Positions 1 to 61,913 of a stretch of DNA of 61,913 bases are shown in pieces. The notes under the pieces were generated by a model. The model worked only from the letters and a program-made list of their open reading frames with translations, was not told the origin of the DNA and ran no database searches. Each line of letters starts with the position of its first letter. The first letter of the stretch is position 1. The position numbers were made by a program, and so were the translations under genes. Origin of the DNA: a virus (taxonomy: Duplodnaviria > Caudoviricetes); the IMG/VR virus record IMGVR_UViG_3300048587_000154, positions 1 through 61,913 of that record; one strand, given 5' to 3'.

Positions 1-127
1 CATCAAGGTCTAGCACCTTTGCCTCAAGCGCGTTTTCGCCCATCGCCTCCTTCTTGGCGAGGATGGTGTTGTAGGTCTCGGTCAGCGTGTCGAGGAGGTC
101 TTGCTGTTCGGATGGCGTCAGCAACAT
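1..127. repeat. 127-bp terminal direct repeat, left copy (circular assembly overlap)
   Basis: Bases 1-127 (catcaaggtc...cagcaacat) are identical to 61787-61913. The repeat lies inside one continuous reading frame. Confidence 0.97.
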
Positions 128-6100: not shown

Positions 6101-7696
6101 CGCACGCGATGCGTCGGTCTCAAGCCCGCGTGCAGATGAGAGCGCGGCAGGCTGGGCTTCTTCCGGCTGCTGAATGACGGTCGGAGCCTCAAGGGCGGGT
6201 TCCTGCGCAACAGGCTGGGCTTCCGGTGCAACGGGTGCCGGTTCTTGTGCAACACCGTACTGCGCGGCGATGGCAATCTCGTCTGGCGTGGCTGGGTCGA
6301 TCGCCTGGCTCACCTCTGCGGCGGCTTCTTCCGGTGACATCGAGTCGATATCGGCGTCGGTCCACAGCATCTTGCGAAGCGTGGCACGGACTTCCGGGGG
6401 GACGCTGGTCGAGGGTGTGGCCGGAGGTGGCATGGAAGGCGCAATGGGCACTGCCGCCTCCTGCTCCACCTCCGGCGCGGCGGGAGCGGCGGCTTCTGGC
6501 GATCCGCGCTCAACCGCATCCGGCTCGGTCGAGGTCTCCAATGGCGCTCGCGCGTAACGCTCGGCAGGGTGCGTCACCACCTGCTGATTGTTAGCGTCCG
6601 CCGCACCGCCCTCGCCCTTGCCGAATATCGCGCGTCCGGTCTTGGACACGACTTGCTCGCCCACCTTCAAGCCACCGCCGACGATGCCGCCGATTGCAGC
6701 CGACTCGGCCACGCCATCCATGATGTCTTGATCGGGCTTGTAGACGTAGCGCGCAATGAGGTTCTGCGCCGCCTGCTGAACGGCTTCCTGACCGCCTTCG
6801 GCTGCCGCCTGTGCAAGCACCTTCCCGACGGCTCCGGCCAACTTGCCGGCGAACGGCAGCGGCACGCGCTCGAACAGCGTTTCGATCGGGATTTGCTCTG
6901 TGAGACCGGGATATCGGCCCAACCTGGCCGCTTGGATGATCTGCTCTTGCGTCGCGCCCTTGGAGATAGCGTCATCGATCTGCTGACCGCCCGTCGCCAG
7001 TGAGCCGCCGACAACGCCGGCAACCGGGCCAAGGCCGGGCACCGCGCCAGCCGCCATGAATGGAACGGTCGAGCCAAGCCCTTCCGAGATCGACCGCGAC
7101 CAAGTGTTCTCATAGTCCTCGGCTGCCGGGAAGTTCTCGGCGGCATAGTCCTGCATCGCCTGCCCTGCTTTGAACAGGGATGTGTCCTGAATTTTCTCCT
7201 CCGGCATGATGTCGGCGTTTTCGCCGAGTCCTGCCAGCGCCTTCACGCCACCATCGACCGTGAGCGTTCCGTTTCGCACCTGCGAAGCGACGGCCAGAAG
7301 AACGATTTCCTTCAAGCCGCGAATGCCCTTGTTGGCCTTGCGCTGCCAGTCCACCCATTCCGTGTTCGTCATGAGCGGGATGCGCTCGAAGTCGGTTACC
7401 AAGCTCTTGACGGCTTCGCGCTCTGCCGGCGAATTGGCCTGTTCCGGGGCAAGACCCTTGACCATGGAGCCGATGGCGTTGATCGCTCCGGCTGCGATGC
7501 CCTTGCCAACTTCGGGGAAGAACGATCCGCCTTCCTCCTCGGCGATCGGCTGGGCCGGCTTTACGCTCGGCGCGGCGTATTTCGCCCATGGGCCTGCGGC
7601 CTTTGCGCCGGGCGTCGGCGACGGGCTGGGCGTAACTGCATCGACCGTAGGGGCTGCATACTTCTCCCACGGGCCACGGATCGCGTTTTCAGCCAT
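1..7696 (-). CDS. Giant DarB-like polyvalent protein, N-terminal part (continues across the junction to 56316; 4,388 aa total): InPase domain, N6-adenine methyltransferase, strawberry-notch/SF2 helicase
   Basis: Translated by hand from ATG 7696 (MAENAIRGPWEKY, abutting the upstream TAA) with no stop to the junction. InPase motifs AGNYKK..IENPKGS..HYGYI..DGDHVDVY..FDEHKV (~5590-6040). MTase motifs QAYSTP, YEPTAGNG, NPPF (~2760-3360). Helicase motifs GDQTGIGKGR, DESH, SAT, QMLGRIHRTGQ (~420-2100). Absent from the ORF track because it runs off the window edge. Confidence 0.93.
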   Translation of the reverse strand, partial: MAENAIRGPWEKYAAPTVDAVTPSPSPTPGAKAAGPWAKYAAPSVKPAQPIAEEEGGSFFPEVGKGIAAGAINAIGSMVKGLAPEQANSPAEREAVKSLVTDFERIPLMTNTEWVDWQRKANKGIRGLKEIVLLAVASQVRNGTLTVDGGVKALAGLGENADIMPEEKIQDTSLFKAGQAMQDYAAENFPAAEDYENTWSRSISEGLGSTVPFMAAGAVPGLGPVAGVVGGSLATGGQQIDDAISKGATQEQIIQAARLGRYPGLTEQIPIETLFERVPLPFAGKLAGAVGKVLAQAAAEGGQEAVQQAAQNLIARYVYKPDQDIMDGVAESAAIGGIVGGGLKVGEQVVSKTGRAIFGKGEGGAADANNQQVVTHPAERYARAPLETSTEPDAVERGSPEAAAPAAPEVEQEAAVPIAPSMPPPATPSTSVPPEVRATLRKMLWTDADIDSMSPEEAAAEVSQAIDPATPDEIAIAAQYGVAQEPAPVAPEAQPVAQEPALEAPTVIQQPEEAQPAALSSARGLETDASRARPASIETSQDLEAAGQRVAEPSDAQAQAGNYKKAHVRIAGQDITIENPKGSTRRNKNPDGPAWESVLPAHYGYIKKTTGADGDHVDVYVGDNPKSKKIYIVDQRAPTQNGRFDEHKVILGADSIAQARDLYVKAFSDGSGNQRVGAITSVSPKAFRDWIATPKAHRTPYAMGKVKTTQEGWPADAQGRVKRPQSMVEFLAASGGVRDHKGELANMDADKVFVPGVGKLVRANGRSLDQARALLVENGYLQDSEDGELSTSTIDDMLVSLATDIGSRDQFSRNDDDWAQAWREDQSRATDERQHVNARERAMAELRELGIDPDAAGMAEVIDLMTGGMSVDDALERDAMGYDADNPQPEAEATPVIPFFDEVGSDEVHPGAALADGAAARAGSQGSDRSEAQADRQDFRAQAPDGRESGPQGAGQETDGGSARTGTEGGARDTFASDEELAALRSEPAPRADNAEAEIMAERMLAGENGNADAAIATIERRIQTSKDGVVVDGMAFDKRTARLALLKLRARKPETEAGADGKPQTVIPGAERASDATMAQRKADAPLKAAKPQKDVGGLFGDDARQTDLMDLHNQVKAKSTEKPTDRFAGNKIFTTDKVEAARARLRSKLSQLNSGIDPEMLVDGMTIAGAYIESGVKSFADFAKAMTADFGKAIHPYLLSFWEGARNYPGLDATGMTSPKEAARLHADLGKEKTPELGGHEYTDAAFEAAAEKARPEPKAETPATKSGRWTKIGVNARGNTVWEDDKGVRSYTENNVRVTEAVGFVPGGGIQINKEGRSKDYLVADEAKPVEPVKNTPAKEVEKINTPASVVEELRDHLLSPDTRFETINQARRWLADHGWKAKQEEIANKEAEEVIEQAVVLAARDIIKAGKKRGSEVVYDRLVSLYERQPRLATRTSQSVAEQAYSTPMPLAYVVDRLANVAGGKIIYEPTAGNGALLIDTDPETQQVHANELNKDRSAALRNQGFRVTDNDALDMETPHGADRIVGNPPFGAVRKNGESIVFEVGQHRTTAIDQAIVLKALEGMTPDGRAVFIVGSVKDGTEAERSDNYNTSQKRKFYKRLYDSYNVIEHFTVSGQMYQRQGAAWPVDVIVIDGKGKSSLPLPAARVPAYINSWASLKGYLDGSRSSESAADRGEPVSIEGRGEIQNPVGAVEERPAGDSGRSGQDGSRGPVDAAPVGGRQPAPSSLPDDRGQRSPDGLVDGDQGRSGLAGRDDTGGTGERVDAKPRDARVTSEANATGQVPYRPYSREGQSLNTLVPAALGAAMDASLAKIEQTHGDIDAFVAQSLGYDTSELEDVFSAEQIDAIALAIDNVAKGDAFIIGDQTGIGKGRVVAAAIRFAHKRGMVPVFVTEKPDLYGDMYRDLNDIQWPKALGRDPYIFMTNSNTTVPLDDEAVDWLIERDQAKVDGVKAPKKRGQFTKSQSPKDADAQMLAILSGKIKPDVIFTTYDQMNTVKGLETSRRRFMNQIAPRAFLIMDESHNAGGQGEKQRAAKGAPVPRAQKFRQWISVAKAVMYSSATYAKNPTVMDLYSRTDMAKAVNDPKDLPELITKGKVPLQQVVASMLADAGQYARRERSFEGVEYDLDVAEVNYEAYADFANSIRTIFDFDRSIKDFRKEWIEAWLKENGAAMGMDSGIGELAANSTEFASIMHNIINQMLLSIKAKAAVERAKQALADGEKPVITLSFTNESFISDYAADKGLSIGDPINITFADVVQRYLDRTLRITIKDGEDEKDHVFIPITDLPGEFRAGYEAAQTAIEEADLSGLPASPIDYIRHELTKDGHKVAEITGRGTMIDYKTGTLASRPSAERGAEGKRVTIKKFNDGGLDVVILNRSGSTGVSLHASSKYKDRSRRRMVIAQADGNIDTHMQMLGRIHRTGQVIAPAYTQLSADIPAEARPTAVLMKKMASLSANTTASRKSAFTADAVDFMNEYGDLAAVQWARDNAELNDRLGTPVAFNEKGAVSTENPMQRLTGRIMLLTPSEQQDLLDTLTETYNTILAKKEAMGENALEAKVLDLD
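2368..2697 (-). CDS. 109-aa protein overprinted in an alternative frame inside the giant gene
   Basis: AAAGGA Shine-Dalgarno 7 nt before the ATG, G/C-ending codons and globular-looking sequence. The host frame here is a low-complexity linker between MTase and helicase. Confidence 0.7.
   Translation of the reverse strand: MAAVVQKVPQTEESRFLSKVEAKFRTLLEQSKNAPQEIADAADRMEAEGLLMQRPSADASPRQAAFQMIGDNEALTDWWMAIRDEAAWQGATTPEELVSALMPSRETLE
4753..4980 (-). CDS. 75-aa basic helical protein overprinted inside the giant gene
   Basis: GAGGT SD 8 nt before the ATG and strongly G/C-ending codons. The host frame is open but linker-like. Confidence 0.6.
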   Translation of the reverse strand: MKYTPEQHLRTARQREQEAKAATDPKRKQIAKTSAHKHRMAARAGRKVQAKKQTAEALERAQKAAHATRSPPTKN

Positions 7697-41452: not shown

Positions 41453-42009
41453 GGCAGCCTCTCGTCTTGCGGGCCTTCAACCAGTCCTTCGGGGATCGGC
41501 AGGTTGTATTCCAACGCCTTCTCGATGTACGGCATCAGCCCGCCCTTTTTCATGCACTCTGCCGCCACGTCAGGCCCGCAATGGCTCAAGACTGCCATCT
41601 TGAGCTTCATGCGGTTGCGATGCTCGTCGGTCATTCGACTCGGCGGTCCAAGCTCCTGCTCGTCGCGCCGCCGCCTGGCGGCTTCGGCCTGCCGCTTGGT
41701 CTCCTCGGCGATGATCGGGGCCAGTTCAGCCCGGATCGCCTCGCACAGTTCGGGCGGCTTCGGCGCAAACTTCTTCGAGGAGCCGACGATGGTCCCGTCG
41801 AGGAATTTCAGGATGGCCGCGTGCAGCGCCCATGCTGGGTATTGCTGCAACGGCAGCACGTAGCCGACCATCGAGTTTTCGGCTTCCTTCTGGCTGTCCT
41901 TTCGCACCTCGAACACGGAGAACAGGACTTCCAGTTCTTTCGTGATTTCATCGACGGTGGCCGGCGTCAGGCGCGGGTCGCGGGTCTCGACCTTACTGAT
42001 TTCGCCCAT
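41449..42009 (-). CDS. Putative helicase loader/recruiter
   Basis: L..YP.WA...A...F..G......F.P.P.EL pattern; overlaps the initiator-like gene. Confidence 0.5.
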   Translation of the reverse strand: MGEISKVETRDPRLTPATVDEITKELEVLFSVFEVRKDSQKEAENSMVGYVLPLQQYPAWALHAAILKFLDGTIVGSSKKFAPKPPELCEAIRAELAPIIAEETKRQAEAARRRRDEQELGPPSRMTDEHRNRMKLKMAVLSHCGPDVAAECMKKGGLMPYIEKALEYNLPIPEGLVEGPQDERLP

Positions 42010-42301
42010 AGCGGCCTCCGCTCAAGTCTGCCGCCAGCCCGGCCATGCTGACGCCTCGGTTTTGCACCTGCGCCGGCACGTTCTGCCATTCGTCATCCCA
42101 GCATTCTTGGTTGAGCCACGTCGAGGGATGCTTGAAATCGATCCGCTCCGGCTTGTGTTGGATATACGCCTTGATGGCGTTCAGCATCGTTTCCAGCGTC
42201 GTTTTCTTGATCGCCTTGTCGAAGGCCTTTCGGGCGGCTCCCTTAGCGATGCGACGCGGGTACGCGGACCAAAACACGGAAAAAGCCTCGTCCTTTGTCA
42301 T
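41993..42301 (-). CDS. Replication-initiator C-terminal-domain-only protein (102 aa)
   Basis: F..FW.AYPR...K.AA.KAF...K.PSTWLN...W.DE; no N-terminal HTH. Confidence 0.75.
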   Translation of the reverse strand: MTKDEAFSVFWSAYPRRIAKGAARKAFDKAIKKTTLETMLNAIKAYIQHKPERIDFKHPSTWLNQECWDDEWQNVPAQVQNRGVSMAGLAADLSGGRYGRNQ

Positions 42302-45682: not shown

Positions 45683-45704
45683 AGGTTTCAGTCTCCGTTG
45701 TGGT

Positions 45705-45971
45705 TTAGGTCGAAAGGTCGTTGCGGATGATGGCAAGGAGCTTGTCCAGCGGCTCATCACCTGTTGCCAGGCTAAGCGCTTCGGAAACCGTGATCTTTCC
45801 AGTCTTGATGAGGAGGAAGATTTTCAGCGCGCCGTCGGCGGTGCGTGTCCCGGCTTCCAGCTTCGATAGCTGGCCCTGTGTGATCCCGCAAAAATCGGCC
45901 ATTTCGCGTTGGCTCATGCCGTTCTGTGTGCGGAACAAGCGGATATCTTCGGAAGTCAGGATTTGTGTCAT
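45705..45971 (-). CDS. Cro/XRE-family HTH regulator
   Basis: IR.FR...GMSQ.EMA...GITQ..LS.LE.G. Confidence 0.85.
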   Translation of the reverse strand: MTQILTSEDIRLFRTQNGMSQREMADFCGITQGQLSKLEAGTRTADGALKIFLLIKTGKITVSEALSLATGDEPLDKLLAIIRNDLST

Positions 45972-46049
45972 ACCCAAGCGATGCCGGCAGAATGCGATCT
46001 AGTCAATGCCCTTGGAATGTTCTGCACCGCTGATGCTGACAATCGATCC

Positions 46050-46465
46050 GGTTTTTTGCTGCTCTACTTCCTTCTTCCTTGGTTCTTAATCCTTAAGGCT
46101 TGACCTTGAGAGGAGGGAAGCGAGGGGGTTAAAGACCCCCTACCCAAGCAGACAAATCAATGTCCACAAGGGGAGGAGGATCGCTTGCACAAACTTGACC
46201 TCTCGTTTCGGTCGCTCGTTCGGCAGGGTGCCTTTCGGAAACCCGTCCTCTGTTTCAGGCTGCACCGTAGGACTTTCGACCCCCGCGCACGCGGCTACGC
46301 CTGCCAGATTTGCACTGGTCTGCCGCACAAAACGAACGGGAGGGGACGCATCGGGACTTGAGGGGACAGTTGGGAGACGCTATGTATTGGCCTCACTGTC
46401 CGATATCGGCTGCGACACCTCTCGGATAGTTCTCACGCCTCGGTCTTTGCAGGACCGGGGCGTTA
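46050..46465 (-). ncRNA. Candidate ~410-nt structured RNA (primer-RNA-like)
   Basis: Several GNRA-capped stems, a long-range helix with G-U pairing on this strand, a G-tract and a purine-rich tail; no credible ORF. Boundaries inferred. Confidence 0.55.
46357..46385 (+). promoter_or_regulatory. sigma70 promoter of the small antisense RNA
   Basis: CTTGAG-N17-CTATGT, one mismatch per box to CTTGAC-N17-CTATAT. Confidence 0.65.
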
Positions 46466-46472
46466 CCTTTTT
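46391..46472 (+). ncRNA. Candidate ~80-nt two-hairpin antisense RNA
   Basis: Stems 46395-46430 and 46435-46463, each completed by a G-U pair on the + strand, followed by TACCTTTTT. Confidence 0.6.
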
Positions 46473-46546
46473 AGAGCGCGACTCCCCGCACATCGTCAAT
46501 CGAAATTATTTTTCGTATTGCTATCGCGCGATGCCCGTGGCATTGT
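46471..46546. promoter_or_regulatory. Divergent promoter pair with a TTCGTATT motif between them
   Basis: Leftward TTGACG (46499-46494)-N17-CTCTAA; rightward TTGCTA (46518)-N17-CATTGT; motif at 46512-46519. Confidence 0.5.
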
Positions 46547-46578
46547 TCCACACGGCATAGCAACTGGGGAGTTCAAGA

Positions 46579-46983
46579 ATGCCTAAGCAAATGTTCACGC
46601 CACAAGGCCATCTAACCCGCCGCATGAAGCGGTTTTTGAAGCGCGTCGTGGTCGAAAACCATCATCCCGAAACGCCACTTATCCACGGAATTATCAACAG
46701 GCGCGCGGAAATCGTTGCAGCTTGGAAATACTACGCCGTCGGCGGTCGTATCGACATCCACCGCGAGGGTCGCGACTGCGACCATACCGCCTATCATTCG
46801 GTCTACAGCATCGATGTTCCAATCTCTGTTGTCGCTTGGGTGCGCGATGAGGCGGAACATCGTTCATGGCTCGATGGGCCGGAGCGGGTCTGGTTTGCCG
46901 CACCAAGCGGTCTATGCGAAACCGGCAAGAGCATTGCCATTTTCTCGCGTCCCTCATTCGTGCAGGGCGACGGCTGGCGCTGA
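46579..46983 (+). CDS. Hypothetical early protein
   Basis: GGGGAG RBS; first gene of the rightward operon. Confidence 0.65.
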   Translation: MPKQMFTPQGHLTRRMKRFLKRVVVENHHPETPLIHGIINRRAEIVAAWKYYAVGGRIDIHREGRDCDHTAYHSVYSIDVPISVVAWVRDEAEHRSWLDGPERVWFAAPSGLCETGKSIAIFSRPSFVQGDGWR

Positions 46984-47357
46984 TGCGTACCTTTACCCCC
47001 GAATACCTGCGGCTGATCGAGTCGCGCGACAAGGCACGGCCTGCCGGCGCTGATTATGGTCTCTCGCGCCCGCATGGTGGGCCGAGCTTCCCGACCATCA
47101 TTGAGGCGCTGGACATGTGGAGCGAGTGGCACGCCGACCACCCCTTTGACGGGTCGCGCGGCAACCTTTTGCTCGATCTGGCGCTGGGCGATGCCTTTCG
47201 TATGTTGATCCAGTTGACCGACAACAAGGCGCGCATGCGTTGGATCGAGCGCCAGATGCCGATCGACCACATGGGGTTGCCGCCCTATCACGCCGCCTTG
47301 GCGCGGTGGTGGATGGCGCTCTACGATTTTCAACAAGGAGACAAGACGAATGGCTAA
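46983..47357 (+). CDS. Hypothetical protein (124 aa, MRTFTP)
   Basis: TGATG overlap. Confidence 0.6.
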   Translation: MRTFTPEYLRLIESRDKARPAGADYGLSRPHGGPSFPTIIEALDMWSEWHADHPFDGSRGNLLLDLALGDAFRMLIQLTDNKARMRWIERQMPIDHMGLPPYHAALARWWMALYDFQQGDKTNG

Positions 47358-48438
47358 AAACCCGCGCTGGGCGTGGTGGGAAAAGGCTCTCACGGCTCGC
47401 GACAAAGGCACGCTCGAAAGGCTGCTTGGAACCCCGGAACTGCCGCTGCATGGCGATGAGTACCAGATTGGTTACTTCCGCATGCTCGACAAGGAAAAAA
47501 AACGCTGGGTGCCTGTCGGCATCTACAAGTTGGGCAGCGTCGATGTCGCCATGGTGGACAACGAGGAAAGCGATCGTGATCTGGTCGAGCTTTTCCATTG
47601 GTGCTGCAAGCATCCGGTCACCTTTGCGGCCTACAACGCCGCGATCAAGGGTGGCGGTTGGGCTGATGAGCCGGCGATTTCCCCGCAAGACGACAACACC
47701 AAGAACATGTCGGAGTTCGAGCGCCTTAACCTCGAATACCAAGGCGAAAAGGAAATGTGCGAGGAGTTTCTTAAAACTCCAATCACCACGCAAGAACAGG
47801 CCGACAAGGTGGCGATCTGGAAAAACCGCCTGACCAAGATCAAGGGCAAGGCCGAGACGTTCCACAAGGTCGAGAAGCAACCTCACCTCGACGCCGGGCG
47901 CGCGGTCGATGACAAGTGGCGCGACCTTAAGGAAGAACCCGACAAGCTCAACAAGCGGCTCCTCGCCCACATCAAGCCATTCCTCGACAAGAAGCAGCGC
48001 GAGGCCGATGAAAAGGCCCTCAAGGCGCGCGAGGAGGCCAAACGCATCGCCCGCGAGAAGGCGGACGCGGATCGGCGCGCGCAGGCCGAACAGGATCGCA
48101 TCGCTACACAAGCGGCATCGGAGGCCGAACGCGAGCTTGCATCCCGCCAGGCGCATGAGCGCGCCGAACAGGAGAAGGCCGATCTTGAGGCGCAAGAGGC
48201 TGCCGTCAAGGAGGAGGCTAAGGGCGAAAAGGTTTCTGCCGGTCGTACCGGCGCGAAGGTATCCAGCCGGAAAAGGCGCTACGGCAAGGTGAACGACTAC
48301 AAGGCGGCTGCGGTCGCTCTTGTGGAGTTGAAGAACAGCGAGTTGATCGAGCTTATCGACAAGATCGCGAACCGCGCTGCAACCGATGAAATGCCGTTCG
48401 ACGGCATGACGATTGAAACGGAGACTGTCTATGTCTGA
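47350..48438 (+). CDS. Coiled-coil recombination-module protein
   Basis: AAGGAG RBS; EK.PHL.AGRAVD.KW and an A/E/K/R-rich coil. Confidence 0.75.
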   Translation: MAKNPRWAWWEKALTARDKGTLERLLGTPELPLHGDEYQIGYFRMLDKEKKRWVPVGIYKLGSVDVAMVDNEESDRDLVELFHWCCKHPVTFAAYNAAIKGGGWADEPAISPQDDNTKNMSEFERLNLEYQGEKEMCEEFLKTPITTQEQADKVAIWKNRLTKIKGKAETFHKVEKQPHLDAGRAVDDKWRDLKEEPDKLNKRLLAHIKPFLDKKQREADEKALKAREEAKRIAREKADADRRAQAEQDRIATQAASEAERELASRQAHERAEQEKADLEAQEAAVKEEAKGEKVSAGRTGAKVSSRKRRYGKVNDYKAAAVALVELKNSELIELIDKIANRAATDEMPFDGMTIETETVYV

Positions 48439-48667
48439 TGAAAATCCCATCACGTTCCCAGCCATCGCGCGTTGCGCCTTCAAGGAAGGTGGCAAGCTCT
48501 ACGACTACATCGCGCCATTTCCCGTTTTGGTCGGGCAGCGCGTTTGGATCGACGGGCGCTACGGCAAGACCAAGCTGATTGTCGGCGAGGTCATTCAGGA
48601 GTCCGAGAAGGCCACGGCTTCCCTGATCGGCATTGTCGAGGAAGAACAGGAAAACGCCGATGAATGA
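48431..48667 (+). CDS. Hypothetical protein (78 aa)
   Basis: GGAG RBS; F...GK.YDY motif. Confidence 0.65.
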   Translation: MSDENPITFPAIARCAFKEGGKLYDYIAPFPVLVGQRVWIDGRYGKTKLIVGEVIQESEKATASLIGIVEEEQENADE

Positions 48668-49811
48668 TCACAATCGAAGCGGCGGCGGCAACAATGCCGT
48701 CGCCACCATCGAACCATCCCGCCTTGCGCTACCACCTGCCATCGCCAAGGAGTTCAGCGTCGAGGCGGCAGACTGGCGCGTGCTGGTCGATCAGATATTC
48801 CCATCGGCCAAGACGGTTGGCTCTGTGCTTTTGGCTCTGTCCTACTGCCGTCGGCGCAACCTCGATATCTTCAAGAAGCCGGTTCACATCGTCCCTATGT
48901 GGTCAACGGCCAAGGGACAAATGGTCGAAACCGTCTGGCCGGGCATCGCTGAAATCCGCACCACTGCCGCCAGAACCGGGAAATACGCCGGCATCGACGC
49001 GGTAGAGTTCGGTCCCATGATCCCGCGTGAGTTCGTGGGTGAAACCACGCAATGGGAGGAGGACGAACAGACCGGGCGAAAGCACAAGAAGAAGGTCACC
49101 ATCACCAAACAGGTGCTTTACCCGGAATGGGCTTCCGTCGTCGTTTACAAGATGCTCGACGGGCAGCGGTGCGCCTACCACGCCAAGGTCTACTGGGAGG
49201 AAGCTTACGCCACCATCGGCAAGACCAACGTGCCGAACGAAATGTGGGAGAAGCGCCCGCGCGGCCAGTTGGACAAATGCGTTGAAGCTGCCGCGCTGCG
49301 CAAGGCCTTCCCCGAAGAACTGGGCAACACCTATGCGGCGGAAGAAATGGAGGGCCGCACGATCGATCACGCTGCATCTGACGCGCCTGCCACCGCCAGC
49401 GCCGCCCCTCCTGATCCGCATGCAGGGGATAAGGCCGAAGAAAACCACGGCGGCGAAGTGGAAGATGCAGAGTTCGAGGAAGTGAACGAAGATGAGGAGG
49501 TCGAGGACAAGAAAGCCGCCGATCCCAAGTCTAAACCTAAGCCCGTCGATAAAGCGAAGCCTGCGCCGTCTGGCGGCGCTCCCAATCCCGACGATGACGA
49601 TGACGATGACGACGGCGACGGCAGCGAAGGCGATAGCCACTTCTTTGCCCTCCTACGTGAAACCATCCGCAAAGCCGACACGGAGGAGGAGGTGGAAGAA
49701 GTCTGGACCGACGCCGATCCCATGGCGCGCTTCGAGGGCAACGAAGTCATGCAAAAGACCGCGCTCGCCATCAAGAACGTGCGATTGAAACAACTGCAAA
49801 AGGCGCAATGA
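48660..49811 (+). CDS. bet: RecT/Bet single-strand annealing protein
   Basis: C....LD.F.K..HIV, GI...R..A.RTG.YAG, W.K.P..QL.KC.EA.ALRKAFP. Confidence 0.88.
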   Translation: MNDHNRSGGGNNAVATIEPSRLALPPAIAKEFSVEAADWRVLVDQIFPSAKTVGSVLLALSYCRRRNLDIFKKPVHIVPMWSTAKGQMVETVWPGIAEIRTTAARTGKYAGIDAVEFGPMIPREFVGETTQWEEDEQTGRKHKKKVTITKQVLYPEWASVVVYKMLDGQRCAYHAKVYWEEAYATIGKTNVPNEMWEKRPRGQLDKCVEAAALRKAFPEELGNTYAAEEMEGRTIDHAASDAPATASAAPPDPHAGDKAEENHGGEVEDAEFEEVNEDEEVEDKKAADPKSKPKPVDKAKPAPSGGAPNPDDDDDDDDGDGSEGDSHFFALLRETIRKADTEEEVEEVWTDADPMARFEGNEVMQKTALAIKNVRLKQLQKAQ

Positions 49812-56022: not shown

Positions 56023-56322
56023 ATGTTGAAATTTGCCGCCGCATTCTATGCGTTGTTCGTTTGTAGTGCGACCGCCTGCGATATCTTTACTGGGGAAGGC
56101 TCCGAGTTCGTCCCCGGAGCAACGCTTACATGGCATCCCGACGGGATATTCACACTCGCCGACTCGGATGGGTCGAAGGACTATGTTTTCCAGTCCACGG
56201 GAATGACTGATGTTCCCTACTCCATGGGCGTCTCGACCAAGGATAAAAACGATGTCGTCTTGATCCGCGAGCTTGATGGCAAGTGGATCATCGACATGGT
56301 GGTTTTCACCTGCGCTCATTGA
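56023..56322 (+). CDS. Secreted or lipoprotein-like 99-aa protein, inverted in the late operon
   Basis: GGAGGA RBS; signal peptide ending SATAC. Confidence 0.65.
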   Translation: MLKFAAAFYALFVCSATACDIFTGEGSEFVPGATLTWHPDGIFTLADSDGSKDYVFQSTGMTDVPYSMGVSTKDKNDVVLIRELDGKWIIDMVVFTCAH

Positions 56323-59300
56323 CGGCTGGCCTTGACGTAGGCCTTGCGCGCCTCGCGCATGGCGTCCAACTCGGCCTTTTCCAGTTCATCAAGCCGCTTC
56401 TTCTTCTGCGCCGCCGCCATGCTGTCGTCAGCTTCGAGTCGGCGGCGCTCTTTGTTCAGTGCCTTGCGCTGCTTTTCTGCCGCCTTGAACGCACCTGCCG
56501 CCTCAAGCTCTGCCGTGTGCGACTTCCGATAGGCATCTGCCTTTGCCGTCTGGCCGCTCTCGTTGTAGGTTTTCAGATACCCCTCTGACGCCATGACGGC
56601 CTCGCGCTCGCGGTAGTATTCGGTGCGCTGCGAATTTTCATCAATCTCGCCATAGAAGTTGCGCACCCACGGCGTCTTGCCCGGCTCAAACTCGCCCACA
56701 AGCGCGTTTTCCGCCGTCTGCTCGACACCAGTAACGAAGCGGCCAAGCCCGCCGACGAAGTATCCCCACAGATGCTCCAACGTGTCGGGGTGGATATCGA
56801 CCGCGCCTGGCACCACCTCATCACCGCCGCTTGTCCAGTTGATGAGTTCGGCCAACTTCCTGAATGCCGGGTGCGTGGTCGAGAACGCTTGCGAGCTTTC
56901 CGGCGCTGGCGATCGATCGAACGGATTGCTGTCCGGGTAGATCGGTGATCCCGCGAAGTTCTCGTTGCTGATGATATCAACAGCGGGATCGCCAATAGTC
57001 GGCGTCACCATGGAAGCCATGGAGCCGGAGCCGATCGGGTTGAAGGCGTCGAAAGCAACGCGGATCGCTGACAAGATGCCCGTCATCGGGTCTTGCGCGC
57101 CCGAAGCGATGGCCGCGCCCTGCAAGCCCAAGTGATGGAAGGCGTTGTAGCCATAGGCCATCGGGAACGAAACGTATTTCTCGGTGCCGGGGATGAAGAA
57201 CACATACTGGCGTTCGAGCTTGTAAGGCTCGTTTTTCAGCATCTTCTCATAGTACGACTCGCCGTCGTCATCCGTGCCGGAAAACAGCATGTTCCAAACG
57301 TGCTGCATCATCCCGCCAAATATGAACGTGGCGATCGCCGCGCGCACCGCCTTTGAGCGCACCGCCCTCGATCCGACGTTGTAAGCGCCCTGCGCAGCCG
57401 CGTTGAAGAACACGAACCATGCGTTCATCGCCGGGCCAAGCTCGCCATGCTTCTTGAAGTCCACGGTCAGGTCGCGCGCCATGAACGCGGCTTCCTTGGC
57501 CGTGCGGCCCTGAATGTTGCGGGCTGCCGCATAAGAGGCCAGGCGGATGCCGTTTTCGCCAGCATCGTTCAAATCGCCAACGAATTTGGTGACGGCGCGG
57601 TACGCCGCTTTCATGGGCGTGACGCCGTTGACGGCCTCGGTCATCTGCTTTTGCAGCTTGTGCAGGTTTTCTTCCAGCGTGGCGTAACCGTGGAACGTGA
57701 TCTTGCCGCCTGCCTCGACATACTCTGCGGCCATCTTGTCCCAAACACCGTCGCCAGCCTTCTTGCGCGACAAACGCCACAATGCGCCCATCGCCTGCGG
57801 GATGTTCTTCGTGATGGTGGCGATCTGCTTGACCGAAAAGCCTTCGTCCAGCAGGTGCGTTGTGCCTGTCTGAATGTCCCTGATGATGTTGATCGGGGTG
57901 AAGGCCGGGTTGGCGCGGGTGTTGACGATCGACTGCCACACGGTAAGCGGGCGCACGATCTTGGAGAGTGTTCCCAGTTCGGCCATACCCATCTTGCGCA
58001 GCGCGAGGCCGATCTTCGGATCGCGGAAGCGGATATAGAACGTCCGTCCGCCCACCTTCGCGGCCAACACGTCATCAAGGTTCGAGAACGGGTTGGGCAC
58101 GCGGCGATAGGTGACAAGACCATCCTTGCCGATCACGCGCTTGAACACGTCCGGGGCTTTGGTGATGTCGCCAAGGAACTTGTCATCGCCCGACCAGTAG
58201 ACTTGCGCGATATGCTCGCCTTCCGGGTCGAACTCGTTGATGAAGCGCGCCATGGCCTTGCCGACGGCGTTCTTGTGCTGGCGCAAGATCGATTGCTCGT
58301 TTTGCGTGATCGCATGCGCAAGGATGTTCTCGGCCTCGGAAAAGCGGCCCATGGCAACCTTGAACTCATCACCGCGCACATCGAAGCCGCCAGCGCCGTG
58401 ATTGTGCCAGAAGCCGTCCGATGTCATGCCCTCCATGCCCTTGAGGGGCACGTAGTTCTTCCACTGCGTCGTCAATAGGTCGAAGGTCTCGGCGCTGATG
58501 AGACCGGCCTTGCGCTGGTTCTTCAATTCGGCATCGATCATTTCCCTGATGGAGCCGGCAGCGATGCGCAAGGCGCGGTGCTTTTCCGGGTCGCTGCGGG
58601 CGTCCGCGATGATTTCGCGCACCTGATCGATTGACATGCCGGAAGCGCCGACAACCGACGAGTCGAAGATCGCCCGGTAGAACTGGCTTTCCTGCGGGTG
58701 GCGCATGCCGACGACGCGGTTCCGCTCCTCGGCGTGCAGGGCGTAGAGGTACTTGTGCAAATCCTCCAAGCTCGCGCCACCATCCGCCAGCGCTTTCACT
58801 GCCGGCGCGACATAGGTGTCGTGCATGCGCTCGATCTGCGGCAGCGCCCGATCTTCCATCAGGCGGGCGTTCAGATAGGCGTCGTTCAACTCGGACAGCT
58901 TGTAGCCGCCGCGCTCCTGCATCATGCGCAGCGGGTGAAGATAGTCGATCCACTTGCGGGTCAGGTAATCGCCAAAGCTCTCGCCGTCATCCTTGTGACT
59001 GCGATCCTTGGTCGTTGATATGCCCTTGAGCGTGGCCGTAGTGTTGCGAAGCATTTTGGCAATGCGCTGGCCCACCAATGCGCCAGGCGCTTTGCTCGGC
59101 TCGATCTTCGGCGGCACAAACTCGGCCTTGTCTGGCATCTGCATTTCTGCGGTGATGGAAATACGGTTATCGTCATAGATGACGTAATTGTACGTGCCCT
59201 TGCCGTCTGAACGCGATCCCCGATCGAGATAACGATGGCCGGGGATGCCAGCCGCACGCAAAGCTTCGGATGCGGCGCGATCGTTTGGAACAGTCTCACG

Positions 59301-61913
59301 CGGATTAACCCTTGCCATCAACGATCCGGCAGGAGGGGGGGAGCCAAGATCAACGGTCAAATACTTGTAGAGGCTGGAGAAGGAAACATCCCCCAGCGAT
59401 CCAGACGAAAGCAAATTCGACACGTTGGTTCCGAGTGATTTCAATTTCTCCACAAGGGCGGGTGGCTGCTCGGACATTTTCTTGTCCCAGTCCAGCAATT
59501 CATGATCTTCGGGGAGGTTGACGGTATAGAGCTTGCCGAAGGTCTTGACCTCTCCCTTGCTCCACTCGCGCAACAGCGCTGCGGCGGCACGCAACGTCTT
59601 GAAGTCTCCCCAGCCGGCTTCCTTCTGGAATGATGTCAATTCGCCCGGCGAAAGCTCTGCCGACCTCGCTTGGTTTTCCACCCAGCGCGCCTTGTCGGTC
59701 AGGCTCATCCCGCTATCAAGCGCCTGACGGGCGAAGATCGCGGCTCGTTCCTCGGCATTGGTGTTGGCGATGTCTTTACTGCCAACAGCAATTCGTTTGC
59801 CGTTTACCTCTATCGAAGCATGGCGCGATGCCAGCGTGTCGCGGTAATACTCTGCGACATCGCGCCGGCCAGCGAAGTAGAGACCCCAGCCGAACGACTG
59901 GTTGCCCTCACCTGTACCGATCTTGTCGGTCGAGAAACGGCCAACCTTGTGCGGCGTGCCGTGGTAAGCCGGCTGATAATCGAAATCGCTGTCACGGATC
60001 GGGTTCACAGGCCGGGTTTTCATTTCGCCGCTGCGCGCCTTGTCGAAGATATCTTCGGCGGTGCGGTAGCCGTGACCGGCAAGCAGGTTCTTGGCGCGGC
60101 GGATCGCTGCCCTGATCTTGTCCCACACCCTGCGAAGCCCGATGTGCAGGCCGCGAACTTCGCGATTGTCATCCATGCGGGTCGAGTAGATGGCGAACGC
60201 CTCGGCCTCCAATTCCTTTTGGCTCATCTTTTCCGGGCGGCGGAACGGGTTCGAGGCGACCAACTCGCGCAGGCGGGCGTTCTCGCGCTGCAACAGGAAG
60301 CGCTCGTCCTTGGTCAAGAACAGCGATTGCAGCCGGTGGAAGGCCTCATGATAGGCGGTGCTGTCGTTGAACGTGTCCAGCGCCAGCGCAATGATGTCAA
60401 TCGCCGGATCGTAATAGCCCGCCGCGTTCCTTGGTCCGTCATCCAGATGCGCGCCCCACGCCTTAAGCGCCGGATGATCTGCCGGGATGGGGATCACGTC
60501 ATGCAATTGCGTCTTGATGCCAGCCACACGGGAGACGATTTCAAGCGCCTTGTGAACCTCGGCTTGCGTCCTGACGATTGGCTCCGGCCCGCGATCCGAA
60601 ACGACGGTGCCGTTCGGCTCCTGCCGGATCGACATTTGCCGGGTGTCCTTCTTCGGAAAGACGATCGACTGGGCAAGCTCGGCCTCACCCGGAGCGACCC
60701 AGCGCACGCCAGCGGTTTGCAGGGCTGCGAGGAGCTTCTTGGCGGTGTCGGCGTTGACCGTCGCCTCCATCTGCCCAAAGCGCTCTGTCCATAGGTCGTA
60801 GACCTTGCGCACGGCGTCGTCTGTGACCAGCTTCTTCGCCTTACGGGAAACGCTAAATTCGAAGCCCCTGTAGGTGTTCTCGACTCTCACCGTATCCTTG
60901 TCGTTGACAAGCGTCTTTTCCTCCGACTCGGCAAGGAAGCGCATGGCCTGATCGGCGTTCTGGAAGCGAATGCGCCGCTCGCGCTGCCAATCTCCCAAGT
61001 CGAACACGCGCGGCATGAGAATGCCGGGCTTGATGTTGCCCTGCTTGTCGGTGAACTGGATGATCTGGCCCTTGCCGTTCAGCCCGTCGAAGGCTGCCAA
61101 CAGATTGCCCGTGGCGATGAAACGCTCGGAACGGCCCTCGGTCGCGGCTTTGGTGAACATAGGCTCCAAGGCTTCGAGCTTGTCGTTCCATCCAGCGCCG
61201 CGAAACTGGGTGATGGCTCCGGCGTCCTCGCCTTCCTTCGGCTTTTCGAACGTGATCTGCGAGAATGGCAGAATGATCGTGCGCGAGGAGTCGGGGATCG
61301 CGATTTCAACCGACCATGAGGAGAGCGCCGTCGGGGATTTGGCCTTCTTGCTGGCGCGGATATCCAGCACGATTGCCGGCATTTCCGTATCCCCCACCAA
61401 GATCACCTGCTTGCCGATCGACATCGACCGGATGATGTTCGACCACTTCTGCAACTGCTCACGCGCCTTTGTCTGCGCGTTTTCCTTCGCCTTCGGGTCT
61501 TTGAGGCTGTCCACGGTCCACTTCGCCCAAGCCTCATGCTCGGTGCGCATGCGCTCGATGGTGCGTTCGGCCTTGATTGCGCCGATCCGCTCCAACTGGC
61601 GAAGCGCCTGCGGGAAGTTCCATGTGTCGGGGCGATGACCAAGCGAGTCGGCAACGCGATCCACCACATCACGCGGCTTCATGGCGAGGCCGACGGACTT
61701 GACCGACATACGCTCCATGTTGGCCGAAGCCTCGAACGGCGACGGGCCGAGCGACGGCTTGATTTCGGTCGATCCCAAGCTTTCGGCATCAAGGTCTAGC
61801 ACCTTTGCCTCAAGCGCGTTTTCGCCCATCGCCTCCTTCTTGGCGAGGATGGTGTTGTAGGTCTCGGTCAGCGTGTCGAGGAGGTCTTGCTGTTCGGATG
61901 GCGTCAGCAACAT
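56316..61913 (-). CDS. Giant polyvalent protein, C-terminal part: HExxH metallopeptidase, ART-like domain, LPD38-like domain
   Basis: YHEAFH (~60336-60353); YHGT..F....IGTGEG.Q..GWGLYF (~59870-59966); NP.F...N..RD, DF...G, FFNA..QG near the end. In frame with 1-7696 through the terminal overlap. Confidence 0.92.
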   Translation of the reverse strand: MLLTPSEQQDLLDTLTETYNTILAKKEAMGENALEAKVLDLDAESLGSTEIKPSLGPSPFEASANMERMSVKSVGLAMKPRDVVDRVADSLGHRPDTWNFPQALRQLERIGAIKAERTIERMRTEHEAWAKWTVDSLKDPKAKENAQTKAREQLQKWSNIIRSMSIGKQVILVGDTEMPAIVLDIRASKKAKSPTALSSWSVEIAIPDSSRTIILPFSQITFEKPKEGEDAGAITQFRGAGWNDKLEALEPMFTKAATEGRSERFIATGNLLAAFDGLNGKGQIIQFTDKQGNIKPGILMPRVFDLGDWQRERRIRFQNADQAMRFLAESEEKTLVNDKDTVRVENTYRGFEFSVSRKAKKLVTDDAVRKVYDLWTERFGQMEATVNADTAKKLLAALQTAGVRWVAPGEAELAQSIVFPKKDTRQMSIRQEPNGTVVSDRGPEPIVRTQAEVHKALEIVSRVAGIKTQLHDVIPIPADHPALKAWGAHLDDGPRNAAGYYDPAIDIIALALDTFNDSTAYHEAFHRLQSLFLTKDERFLLQRENARLRELVASNPFRRPEKMSQKELEAEAFAIYSTRMDDNREVRGLHIGLRRVWDKIRAAIRRAKNLLAGHGYRTAEDIFDKARSGEMKTRPVNPIRDSDFDYQPAYHGTPHKVGRFSTDKIGTGEGNQSFGWGLYFAGRRDVAEYYRDTLASRHASIEVNGKRIAVGSKDIANTNAEERAAIFARQALDSGMSLTDKARWVENQARSAELSPGELTSFQKEAGWGDFKTLRAAAALLREWSKGEVKTFGKLYTVNLPEDHELLDWDKKMSEQPPALVEKLKSLGTNVSNLLSSGSLGDVSFSSLYKYLTVDLGSPPPAGSLMARVNPRETVPNDRAASEALRAAGIPGHRYLDRGSRSDGKGTYNYVIYDDNRISITAEMQMPDKAEFVPPKIEPSKAPGALVGQRIAKMLRNTTATLKGISTTKDRSHKDDGESFGDYLTRKWIDYLHPLRMMQERGGYKLSELNDAYLNARLMEDRALPQIERMHDTYVAPAVKALADGGASLEDLHKYLYALHAEERNRVVGMRHPQESQFYRAIFDSSVVGASGMSIDQVREIIADARSDPEKHRALRIAAGSIREMIDAELKNQRKAGLISAETFDLLTTQWKNYVPLKGMEGMTSDGFWHNHGAGGFDVRGDEFKVAMGRFSEAENILAHAITQNEQSILRQHKNAVGKAMARFINEFDPEGEHIAQVYWSGDDKFLGDITKAPDVFKRVIGKDGLVTYRRVPNPFSNLDDVLAAKVGGRTFYIRFRDPKIGLALRKMGMAELGTLSKIVRPLTVWQSIVNTRANPAFTPINIIRDIQTGTTHLLDEGFSVKQIATITKNIPQAMGALWRLSRKKAGDGVWDKMAAEYVEAGGKITFHGYATLEENLHKLQKQMTEAVNGVTPMKAAYRAVTKFVGDLNDAGENGIRLASYAAARNIQGRTAKEAAFMARDLTVDFKKHGELGPAMNAWFVFFNAAAQGAYNVGSRAVRSKAVRAAIATFIFGGMMQHVWNMLFSGTDDDGESYYEKMLKNEPYKLERQYVFFIPGTEKYVSFPMAYGYNAFHHLGLQGAAIASGAQDPMTGILSAIRVAFDAFNPIGSGSMASMVTPTIGDPAVDIISNENFAGSPIYPDSNPFDRSPAPESSQAFSTTHPAFRKLAELINWTSGGDEVVPGAVDIHPDTLEHLWGYFVGGLGRFVTGVEQTAENALVGEFEPGKTPWVRNFYGEIDENSQRTEYYREREAVMASEGYLKTYNESGQTAKADAYRKSHTAELEAAGAFKAAEKQRKALNKERRRLEADDSMAAAQKKKRLDELEKAELDAMREARKAYVKASRQ
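61787..61913. repeat. 127-bp terminal direct repeat, right copy
   Basis: Identical to 1-127. Confidence 0.97.

What the first reader, a model, noticed from the sequence alone, without database searches (positions are those of the whole stretch)
46050..46465. Candidate ColE1-like RNA-primed origin: structured leftward RNA with G-tract, purine tail and A-run
Seen on the minus strand after a TTGACG promoter: a long-range helix (CGUUCGUU..CGGCAG, 46338-46320, pairing with CUGCCG-AACGAGCG, 46226-46213, including a U-G pair). It encloses hairpins CCAGU-GCAA, CCGC/GCGG, C-GAAA-G and GGGU..CC-GAAA-GG.ACCC. Next come GGGUAGGGGG (46145-46136), a purine-rich run (AAGAACCAAGGAAGAAGGAAGUAGAG) and A6 (46057-46052). 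Known: ColE1 RNA II is folded, needs a G-tract to form an R-loop and is cut by RNase H at an A-run. Inference: a phage origin primed by an R-loop RNA. With the antisense RNA and headless initiator, this is my best candidate for an undescribed system.
Basis: partly seen in the sequence, partly recalled or inferred. Interest (0 to 1): 0.85.

Follow-up and report, generated by a model that had tools for sequence, protein, structure and literature searches.

The report
Conserved switch-like early phage RNA
This stretch encodes a member of a conserved, intricately folded RNA family that temperate phages place just after an early promoter; it is absent from the RNA family catalogue searched, and whether it primes DNA replication, as first proposed, is still open.

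Summary
About 50 related sequences were found: two Synechococcus phage isolates, IMG/VR contigs, metagenomes and 12 Hyphomicrobiales genomes. They share a ~270-330-nt element with 47 tested pairs in 8 helices, two of them pseudoknots. Of the pair cells, 91.8% are paired against 79.5% in shuffles (0/500), and 26 pairs change on both sides. Rfam 15 has no match, and it is not protein-coding.

In a related prophage the element follows an early promoter flanked by repressor operators, divergent from a RecT/nuclease operon.

It appears to be a two-state switch. A C-rich strand can pair with either of two identical G-boxes (47/50 identical, five states) and with either of two identical W strands. 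The 3' tail also repeats, in order, the phage-specific loop sequences of the variable domain. The X repeat has no complementary partner in cis.

The G-tract and purine-rich tail are conserved. Origin function is untested. My best reading is a cis-acting early leader switch (0.4). An R-loop primer remains a serious rival (0.25).

The parts
46471..46499 (-). Promoter-like TTGACG (46499-46494), 17-nt spacer, CTCTAA (46476-46471). The start of the sense RNA is inferred near 46465.
   Evidence: Read. One search lists TTGACG-N17-CTCTAA at -219 from the core, and the same in L043. The block is near-identical in L043. The generic sigma-70 scan found no site. The start site is inferred.
46435..46463 (-). 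13-bp hairpin in the 130-nt 5' leader. This leader is specific to the window and L043. On the plus strand it reads as an intrinsic terminator.
   Evidence: 13 pairs, 8 G-C, then TACCTTTTTA on the plus strand. One compensatory change in L043: GGUC/GACC becomes GGCC/GGCC.
46357..46473 (+). Candidate antisense small RNA unit: CTTGAG (46357-46362), 17-nt spacer, CTATGT (46380-46385), a body of about 82 nt, terminator 46435-46473.
   Evidence: promoter block 21/21 identical in L043. Weak Rfam ncS54 look-alike at 17.4 bits against a gathering score of 43. Expression not shown.
46211..46324 (-). Conserved core as matched by covariance model R1.
   Evidence: 103.8 bits, E 1.9e-28, the only strong hit in the window. 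The next hit (13.6 bits) lies inside a giant ORF.
46291..46326 (-). P1 (GCGGC 46326-46322 with GCCGC 46295-46291). It encloses the T-loop-like hairpin P2 (46318-46305, loop UGCAAAU) and the 5' strand of pseudoknot PK (CAGG 46303-46300).
   Evidence: P1: 4 of 5 pairs change on both sides. P2: 3 of 4. The T-loop label is my reading of the U-N-N-R-A loop, not a test.
46256..46289 (-). H3 (46289-46285 with 46265-46261), G-box1 GGGGGUC (46284-46278), GAAA (46277-46274), the 5' strand of H4 (46273-46266), and the PK 3' strand CCUG (46259-46256).
   Evidence: H3 is 100% paired, and pair 49-78 shows 5 pair types. PK pair 35-84: AU 11, UA 10, CG 3, GC 1. Coordinates.
46226..46252 (-). H4 3' strand CAGAGGAC (46252-46245), which crosses H3 to form the second pseudoknot. 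GNRA hairpin H5 (46244-46226).
   Evidence: H4 is 100% paired, and pair 73-89 switches G-C (25), C-G (6), U-A (1). In H5, 4 of 4 pairs change on both sides.
46183..46225 (-). Variable domain, type A: closing helix W/W*, inner hairpin GACC-GAAACGAGA-GGUC, and X1 AGGUCAAG (46201-46194).
   Evidence: The three domain types (A, B, C) were read.
46133..46182 (-). Long hairpin H8: C-box GAUCCUCC (46182-46175) and upper stem (46172-46143), paired with the bipartite G-tract GGGUAGGGGG (46145-46136), which includes G-box2 GGGGGUC (46140-46134).
   Evidence: helices 7 and 8 (86.1% and 89.5% paired; 3 of 8 and 8 of 11 pairs change on both sides)..
46099..46132 (-). Pyrimidine-rich tail: a local CCCCC that pairs with G-box2 in the window only, then CUUCCCUCCUCUC, then X2 AGGUCAAG (46106-46099).
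   Evidence: X2 sits at G-box2 +30..37 in 35 of 44 sequences.
46052..46087 (-). Purine-rich run (46087-46062) and A6 (46057-46052).
   Evidence: The purine-rich character recurs in relatives. A6 does not.
45705..45977 (-). First downstream gene, an HTH_3 (Cro-like) protein. It heads a run of minus-strand genes that continues to about 7.7 kb.
   Evidence: HTH_3, E 4.2e-09. ORF map.
46579..49811 (+). Divergent operon: two unknown ORFs, an exonuclease (47350-48438) and RecT (48633-49811).
   Evidence: RecT, E 3.8e-23. (phrog_10477 exonuclease).

Best explanation
WHAT IT IS. Window 46326 to about 46060 (minus strand) is one member of an uncatalogued family of ~270-330-nt structured RNAs of temperate phages and prophages, mostly of Hyphomicrobiales.

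SHOWN BY COMPARISON:
- The fold is P1 plus a T-loop-like hairpin, two pseudoknots (P1 crossing PK, H3 crossing H4), a GNRA hairpin, a variable domain and a long G-rich hairpin.
- It is not protein-coding.
- It sits after an early promoter, divergent from the recombination operon. In one annotated prophage that promoter region carries the same operator motif as the CI/Cro region.
- No regular intrinsic terminator follows it.
- One C-rich strand (W* plus the C-box) is complementary both to upstream elements (W, G-box1) and to letter-identical downstream copies (G-box2, W').

INFERRED MECHANISM. The RNA is a cis-acting, co-transcriptional two-state switch at the head of the early transcript.
- While the core and domain are held closed (W:W*, G-box1:C-box), the G-rich and purine-rich 3' tail stays free.
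- Otherwise the newly made G-box2-W' displaces them and zips up one long hairpin.
- The state sets what happens downstream. The output is most likely RNA polymerase read-through or attenuation, or accessibility of the first ribosome-binding region, for whatever early genes follow.

NOT EXPLAINED. The strongly conserved core would be the sensor for a conserved host factor or ligand, which is unknown. The duplicated phage-specific X and V1 blocks are not explained by this model.
For: FAMILY. It was found in 2 of 50,697 phage records, 27 IMG/VR loci of which 1 is a chance hit, 12 genome loci and 35 metagenome loci of which 5 are chance hits or copies of a chance hit. By covariance model it is in 3 of 151 genomes of one order.

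STRUCTURE. 91.8% of cells are paired against 79.5 +/- 0.6 in shuffles (0/500) and 46.6-58.0% when slid. The covariation score is 0.441 against 0.213. 26 of 47 pairs change on both sides. GNRA loops and many U-G pairs fix the strand as minus.

NOT CODING. The best frame is open in 11 of 44 sequences. The spacing between anchors, modulo 3, is 17/14/13.

SWITCH.
- The G-box 7-mers are identical in 47 of 50 sequences (GGGGGTC 32, GGGTGTC 13, GGGCGTC 1, GGAGGTC 1), with the C-box compensating.
- A fifth state, GGGAAGC, occurs in both boxes of 2 of 2 members found by the model.
- W*:W' duplex energy for own pairs sums to -322.4 against -264.9 +/- 13.0 for permuted pairs (0/5000). W:W* gives -433.0 against -397.9 +/- 15.9 (68/5000).

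CONTEXT.
- In L077 the operator motif GAAAG-N5-CTTTC lies just upstream of P1 and also between CI and Cro.
- Upstream divergent ORFs from 30 loci (92 ORFs): RecT 12, DUF3799 nuclease 10, ERF 2, YqaJ 2, Rad52 1.
- The first downstream same-strand ORFs are nearly all different. 36 clusters cover 41 loci, and 9 further loci have no ORF of 70 aa or more within 450 nt.
- A weak terminator-like site lies within 500 nt in 9 of 48.
- TTGAC occurs upstream on the RNA strand in 24 of 46.
Against: - No transcript, 5' end or 3' end was seen. No RNA run held the stretch.
- A cis regulator should precede a coherent gene set. Here the downstream genes are unrelated.
- In 6 of 6 loci tested, a CI-like repressor gene lies downstream on the opposite strand. 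The annotated L077 prophage shows the same layout. In those phages nothing obvious is regulated nearby.
- The model gives no role to the X repeat. X has no complementary partner in cis: 19 of 34 have none within about -250..+500, and the rest show no positional clustering.
- The window itself lacks the W*:W' pairing (+0.5 kcal/mol).
- Known antitermination RNAs such as HK022 put are about 70 nt with two stem-loops, and occur after both early promoters (PMC9378689, passages). Here there is one copy per genome.
- The shuffle controls do not remove relatedness, and the exact-pattern ascertainment inflates core invariance.
Confidence: 0.4

Rival explanations
1. R-loop primer or origin. The folded 5' part carries copies (G-box1, W, V1, X1) of blocks that recur in the same order in the DNA of its own tail. 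It can therefore re-anneal to the template strand behind RNA polymerase. This stabilises a persistent RNA:DNA hybrid over the bipartite G-tract and purine run, which is then processed into a leading-strand primer. The C-box acts as a gate: when it captures G-box2, the nascent RNA is stripped from the DNA.
For: - Upstream RNA blocks are identical to downstream non-template DNA. G-boxes: 47/50 plus 2/2.
- X: own-pair match sum 298 against 199.5 +/- 7.4 for permuted pairs, maximum 235, 0/20000. It sits at a fixed position in 35/44.
- V1/W region: 206 against 186.3 +/- 4.7, with 2/20000 reaching the observed value.
- X has no RNA partner in cis, so the template strand is the simplest reader.
- The rG/dC contact is reported as essential for the ColE1 hybrid. 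T4 oriF/oriG and mitochondrial OriH are R-loop origins, and OriH also forms a hybrid G4 (review PMC4412123, passages).
- The element is independent of downstream gene identity. It is under repressor-type operators. It lies next to recombination genes and at the head of a co-oriented gene array.
- An antisense small RNA candidate is present in 2 members.
Against: - There is no replication data.
- The A-run is not conserved.
- The G-box and W identities are already explained by RNA-RNA alternatives.
- An elaborate double-pseudoknot core with many invariant bases is not needed just to form an R-loop.
- There is no sequence relation to ColE1 replicons.
- GC skew is uninformative, because the locus is also the point where transcription diverges.
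- In L078 the DnaB-like helicase module is about 8 kb away.
Confidence: 0.25
2. A stable, trans-acting non-coding RNA made early in lytic growth. The conserved core would bind or sequester a conserved host factor, for example RNA polymerase, an RNase, or a tRNA-recognising enzyme via the T-loop-like hairpin. The phage-specific loop blocks would be read by a phage factor or a target nucleic acid.
For: - The core is very strongly conserved across phages whose flanking genes are mosaic.
- A downstream gene is often absent or convergent.
- One locus (L010) has a phrog_850 'RNA-binding protein' gene downstream.
- Phage-specific V1 and X sit on the two sides of an internal loop, a typical recognition site.
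Against: - No regular terminator or defined 3' end.
- No protein partner is conserved next to it.
- No complementary target was found in the loci held.
- The duplication of the loop blocks in the tail is not needed for a sponge.
Confidence: 0.2
3. DNA-level element: the repeated blocks are binding sites (iterons or operators) for a phage-specific DNA-binding protein, and the apparent RNA structure is secondary.
For: Direct repeats of phage-specific sequence with fixed spacing.
Against: - Compensatory base-pair changes, G-U tolerance on one strand only and GNRA loops show selection on an RNA fold.
- The real operators in L077 have a different, palindromic motif located upstream of P1.
- No co-varying DNA-binding gene is conserved nearby.
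Confidence: 0.05
4. Chance structure or an unannotated small protein gene.
For: Single-sequence folding energy is not better than shuffles. Open frames overlap the element in some loci (clusters 2 and 6).
Against: - About 50 homologues with covariation.
- No frame is open in more than 11 of 44, and indels are not in threes.
- Covariance model hit of 103.8 bits.
Confidence: 0.01

Closest known systems
ColE1/pMB1 primer RNA II with antisense RNA I
   Same: - A promoter-proximal folded RNA.
- An upstream rG stretch matching a downstream G run (dC in the template).
- A purine-rich region downstream.
- In the window and L043, a short antisense RNA with its own terminator over the 5' leader.
- Alternative RNA folds could decide whether a hybrid forms.
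   Different: - No sequence or Rfam relation.
- The fold is a double pseudoknot rather than a series of stem-loops.
- It carries several phage-specific duplicated blocks, not one G run.
- The A-run is not conserved.
- It is found in phages, with the only plasmid hits being prophages in megaplasmids.
- RNase H and Pol I dependence are untested.
HK022 putL/putR processive antitermination RNAs
   Same: A cis-acting nascent RNA just downstream of an early phage promoter. No dedicated phage protein is needed. It would explain independence from the identity of downstream genes and conservation across hosts through RNA polymerase.
   Different: put is about 70 nt, has two stem-loops with a triplex, and has one copy after each early promoter (PMC9378689, passages). 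Here the element is about 270-330 nt, has pseudoknots and a switch, occurs once per genome, and carries duplicated address blocks. Binding to RNA polymerase is untested.
Riboswitch or attenuator leaders with mutually exclusive pairings
   Same: A conserved pseudoknotted 'aptamer-like' core followed by strands that can pair in two ways (G-box1 or G-box2 with the C-box; W or W' with W*).
   Different: There is no common downstream gene class, no terminator, no known ligand and no Rfam family. The tail also copies unpaired loop sequences.
R-loop origins of phage T4 (oriF/oriG) and mitochondrial LSP-CSBII
   Same: Transcript-primed initiation downstream of a promoter. CSBII forms a hybrid G4 with the G-rich RNA (review passages). 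That CSBII is a bipartite G run interrupted by one base is recalled, as is its likeness to G5-UA-G6 here.
   Different: Those systems have no large conserved folded RNA upstream and no duplicated address blocks. Nothing here shows termination or priming.

Membership tests
ColE1-type RNA II/RNA I replicon | Sequence or profile similarity to the ColE1 replicon RNAs (Rfam RNAI) or to ColE1-type plasmid origins | tested here: not met
   No Rfam hit at gathering score or at E<=10 in 45700-46900. blastn against 72,556 plasmids found only 4 Pseudochrobactrum megaplasmids, where the hit lies in a prophage.
ColE1-type RNA II/RNA I replicon | Upstream rG stretch in the RNA matching a dC stretch of the template near the origin | tested here: inconclusive
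   G-box1 and G-box2 are identical in 47/50 plus 2/2 sequences through five states. A C-rich RNA strand complementary to both explains this equally well.
ColE1-type RNA II/RNA I replicon | Antisense RNA complementary to the 5' part of the primer RNA | tested here: inconclusive
   A plus-strand promoter-like site and an intrinsic terminator are conserved in the window and L043 only. It is absent from most members, whose promoter lies about 35-70 nt before P1. No expression data.
ColE1-type RNA II/RNA I replicon | RNase H cut at an A-rich site, Pol I extension, and replication start at that point | not testable with these tools
   The A6 run exists in the window but not in relatives.
HK022 put-type antitermination RNA | About 70 nt, two stem-loops, one copy downstream of each early promoter | tested here: not met
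   The element is about 270-330 nt with 8 helices. There is a single strong covariance model hit per window or genome. put features are from PMC9378689 passages.
HK022 put-type antitermination RNA | Makes RNA polymerase terminator-resistant in cis through the beta' zinc-binding domain | not testable with these tools
   Position only: it follows an early promoter and heads a co-oriented gene array.
Riboswitch (any Rfam class) | Match to a curated aptamer model | tested here: not met
   The best sub-threshold hits are a plant miRNA, an L19 leader and ncS54, all far below their gathering scores.
Riboswitch (any Rfam class) | Conserved aptamer plus mutually exclusive expression-platform pairings upstream of a coherent gene set | tested here: inconclusive
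   The conserved core and alternative pairings are met. A coherent gene set is not: 36 clusters cover 41 first downstream ORFs.
Protein-coding gene | A conserved open frame with indels in multiples of three | tested here: not met

The most novel reading that the evidence does not exclude
A self-addressed R-loop anchor. The folded 5' part of the early transcript displays, in order, copies of four blocks of its own tail: G-box, W, V1 and X. V1 and X are phage-specific and sit on the two sides of an internal loop. With these copies it re-anneals to the template strand just behind RNA polymerase. A C-rich gate strand decides whether the bipartite G-tract stays on the DNA or folds into a hairpin. 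The resulting hybrid over the purine run primes leading-strand synthesis in the same direction as the long gene array. This would make the element a repressor-controlled, initiator-free phage origin whose specificity is written in RNA.
Probability: 0.2. Interest if true: 0.9.

Novelty: new variant of a known kind. Interest (0 to 1): 0.74.

Why it matters
Large pseudoknotted RNAs with dozens of near-invariant bases are rare. Those already characterised are mostly ribozymes, riboswitches or parts of ribonucleoproteins. This one is made early by temperate phages, apparently under direct repressor control.

Its design is unusual. One strand has two identical alternative partners. The 3' tail repeats the phage-specific loop sequences of the folded part.

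If it is a leader switch, it is a new way for phages to time early transcription. If it is an R-loop anchor, it would be an RNA-specified phage origin and a natural case of an RNA addressing its own DNA. Either way it is directly testable in culturable lysogens such as Kaistia, Mesorhizobium and Bradyrhizobium.

Tried and rejected
- Rfam at gathering score and at E<=10 gave nothing usable.
- Single-sequence folding z-scores were -0.88 and -0.91, not significant.
- RNAalifold alone gave only part of the fold and no pseudoknots. An all-against-all column scan was too noisy to use.
- Sequencing runs: no RNA holder was listed. I laid four runs labelled RNA-Seq but judged probably DNA, kept as contigs. 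They carry only short pieces, including relatives' conserved core at about 46242-46296, and say nothing on expression or ends.
- X as the repressor operator: rejected. The operators in L077 are a different palindromic motif upstream of P1.
- X complement in cis, exact or with G-U allowed: none consistent.
- The window's X 8-mer occurs 9 times on the minus strand. The other 7 lie in coding sequence as GAG/AAG-GTC-AAG codons, so this is a codon effect.
- One reverse-complement site at about 51531 lies inside an ORF and is judged chance.
- Antisense promoter at the tail: I saw no consistent -35/-10 by eye. No tool test was run.
- Regular intrinsic terminator after the tail: none.
- Plasmid origin: rejected.
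- G-box1 pairing with the tail CCCCC appears in the window's minimum-energy fold only. By eye it does not recur in relatives.
- GC skew has a shallow minimum near 47-54 kb. It is confounded by the divergence of transcription there, so I did not use it.
- Literature: searches for the phage name, for motif strings, and for prophage, structured RNA, pseudoknot, Rhizobiales and recT terms listed no description of this RNA. The one passage look-up in the Minerva preprint concerns other RNAs.
Candidate-motif lists in the supplements of comparative RNA surveys (for example PMC5737381, seen only as a search listing) could hold it.
I then obtained handles through 'handles' and searched the order.
- Rows dropped before counts: chance pattern hits L024, L047, L050, L061, L065 and L070; exact duplicates (L002, L017, L021, L023, L032, L035, L037, L038 and others); loci cut too short for a given measure (named). 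For the permutation tests, near-identical sequences were thinned from 50 to 44.
Full report
SETTING. The window is a virus record. A giant minus-strand ORF runs off both ends of the window, so the record looks like a circularly permuted genome.

The finding lies in a 600-nt gap between two diverging sets of genes:
- On the minus strand is an HTH_3 gene (45977-45705). It heads a run of minus-strand genes: a D5-like regulator, an MT-A70 methylase, HNH endonucleases, RusA, a 102-aa piece like the C-terminus of a replication initiator, small terminase and others. The run continues to about 7.7 kb.
- On the plus strand is an operon with an exonuclease and RecT.

The picture changes with relatives:
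- blastn against 50,697 phage records found the 100-nt core (46231-46330) at 78.6% identity. The hit lies in the syntenic unannotated gap, also next to RecT, of two Synechococcus phage isolates.
- An 18-base pattern from the shared core found 27 IMG/VR loci (one a chance hit). It also found 35 metagenome loci, of which four are chance hits and one copies the IMG/VR chance hit.
- A 20-base pattern found 12 loci among 185,579 species genomes. All genera looked up are Hyphomicrobiales. The remaining genera I place there from memory.
- A covariance model of the core scores the window at 103.8 bits (E 1.9e-28), with no second copy.
- The model finds one copy in each of 5 host genomes and in 3 of 151 genomes sampled from one order.

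THE FOLD. I used a 32-sequence alignment (A2) and wrote a structure by hand from RNAalifold plus visible covariation. It has these parts:
- P1, enclosing a hairpin with a U-N-N-R-A, T-loop-like loop.
- A pseudoknot (PK) between the P1 loop and a strand 3' of H3.
- H3, and H4 crossing H3 as a second pseudoknot.
- A GNRA hairpin.
- A long hairpin whose 3' strand is the G-tract.

On 47 pairs, 91.8% of cells are standard pairs, against 79.5% in shuffles (0 of 500) and 46.6-58.0% when partners are slid. 26 pairs change on both sides. The covariation score is 0.441 against 0.213.

GNRA loops and the many U-G pairs (which would be A-C on the other strand) fix the strand as the window's minus strand. 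It is not a gene: no frame is open in more than 11 of 44 sequences, and the spacing between conserved anchors shows no rule of three.

The long-range helix does not (as few as 2 and 7 of 32 paired). The CCGC/GCGG hairpin is replaced by P1 and H3.

Two cautions apply. The shuffles ignore relatedness. And bases inside the fishing pattern are invariant by construction. Two members found only by the model (L080, L081) do vary there and keep the design.

A TWO-STATE DESIGN.
- The 7-mer before GAAAG in the core (G-box1) and the 7-mer ending the G-tract (G-box2) are identical in 47 of 50 sequences. They pass together through GGGGGTC, GGGTGTC, GGGCGTC and GGAGGTC. The C-rich 5' strand of the long hairpin changes to stay complementary.
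- L080 and L081 add a fifth state, GGGAAGC, in both boxes.
- Next to the C-box lies W*, the 3' strand of the helix that closes the variable domain. It can pair with W (upstream) or with a copy, W', just after G-box2.
- Own-pair duplex energies beat permuted pairs for W*:W' (-322.4 against -264.9 +/- 13.0, 0 of 5000) and less clearly for W:W* (68 of 5000).

So one strand has two sets of identical partners. Either the core and domain are closed and the tail is free, or one long hairpin forms and the domain opens. The window lacks W' and instead has a local GGGGG-UCUUUAA-CCCCC hairpin.

THE UNEXPLAINED REPEAT. The variable domain comes in at least three forms. In all of them the two sides of its internal loop recur in the tail, in the same order. 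The inner hairpin is replaced there by an unrelated linker of similar length.
- For the 3' side (X; AGGUCAAG in the window, at 46201-46194 and 46106-46099), the longest shared word maps to the same two places in 35 of 44 sequences. Own pairs beat 20,000 permutations (298 against 199.5 +/- 7.4, maximum 235).
- X differs widely between phages.
- It has no complementary partner in cis, even allowing G-U.
- It is not the operator.
- The 5' side (V1) and W give a weaker signal (206 against 186.3 +/- 4.7, 2 of 20,000).

CONTEXT.
- In the annotated Pseudochrobactrum prophage the order is: RecT/nuclease operon leftward, then operator-like GAAAG-N5-CTTTC repeats, then the RNA rightward, then DUF5131. 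After that comes a cassette on the opposite strand (TcmP, restriction enzyme, LexA-like CI). Then come Cro, a DnaB-like helicase and the structural genes, all in the RNA's direction.
- The same operator motif stands between CI and Cro. The RNA promoter is therefore probably repressed in the lysogen. This is an inference.
- Six of six further loci tested have a CI-like gene downstream on the opposite strand.
- Among 92 upstream divergent ORFs from 30 loci, 12 are RecT, 10 DUF3799 nucleases, 2 ERF, 2 YqaJ and 1 Rad52.
- First downstream ORFs are nearly all unrelated.
- No regular terminator follows (9 of 48 weak sites).
- TTGAC stands upstream on the RNA strand in 24 of 46.

WHAT IT MOST LIKELY DOES. 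I commit, at 0.4, to a cis-acting co-transcriptional switch at the head of the early transcript. The state of the switch sets polymerase read-through or access to the first ribosome-binding region. This reading explains the position, the conserved core, and the G-box and W duplications. It does not explain X, nor the lack of a common downstream gene.

The R-loop primer idea (0.25) explains X and V1 without any partner, along with the G-tract, the purine run and the indifference to downstream genes. It parallels the rG/dC contact of ColE1 and the R-loop origins of T4 and mitochondria (review passages).

A trans-acting RNA that binds a host factor (0.2) also remains open.

COMPARISON AND NOVELTY. 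The element is not a member of the ColE1 RNA family, of put RNAs (about 70 nt, two stem-loops, two copies; PMC9378689 passages) or of any Rfam riboswitch. It may nonetheless work like one of them.

My literature searches found no description of it. Supplements were closed. I rate it a new variant of a known kind: a promoter-proximal structured phage RNA with an unusual self-copying tail.

Noticed in passing
window 46357-46473 (+): Candidate ~82-nt antisense small RNA over the sense RNA's 5' leader. It has CTTGAG-N17-CTATGT and a 13-bp terminator hairpin followed by a T run. The promoter block and hairpin are conserved in metagenome locus L043, with one compensatory pair. There is a weak, sub-threshold Rfam ncS54 look-alike.
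   Followed up: partly
window 2-7696 (-) and 56316-61913 (-): Two very long minus-strand ORFs (2565 aa running off the start; 1865 aa beginning at the last base). They would join into one protein of about 4430 aa if the record is circular.
   Followed up: no
L077 5836-6000 and 11051-11132: Repeated GAAAG-N5-CTTTC / CTTTC-N3-GAAAG palindromes lie both upstream of the RNA and between the LexA-like CI and Cro genes. They are probably the prophage repressor's two operator regions.
   Followed up: partly
L001, L002 (Synechococcus phages Yong-M2-251, Ssp-JY39): These cyanophage isolates carry a type-B copy nearly identical to those in Aquamicrobium and other Hyphomicrobiales prophages, and share the RecT-side synteny. 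This is an unexpected link across host phyla, or it raises a question about the true host.
   Followed up: no
window 41993-42301 (-): A 102-aa ORF matches only the C-terminal part (profile positions 176-260 of 383) of a phage replication-initiation protein family (phrog_270). The adjacent 186-aa ORF has no known function.
   Followed up: partly
L077 6313-8217; L001, L004, L039 downstream of the RNA: A DUF5131 (Gp37/Gp68) gene directly follows the RNA in several phages. In L077 it overlaps a convergent TcmP gene and is followed by a restriction endonuclease, which looks like a lysogeny-expressed defence cassette.
   Followed up: no
L010 6185-7573 (+): A 462-aa phrog_850 'RNA-binding protein' gene lies about 450 nt downstream of the RNA in one locus only.
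   Followed up: no
window 4475-4588 (-): Weak covariance model hit (13.6 bits, rough E 0.013) inside the giant ORF. Probably noise.
   Followed up: no
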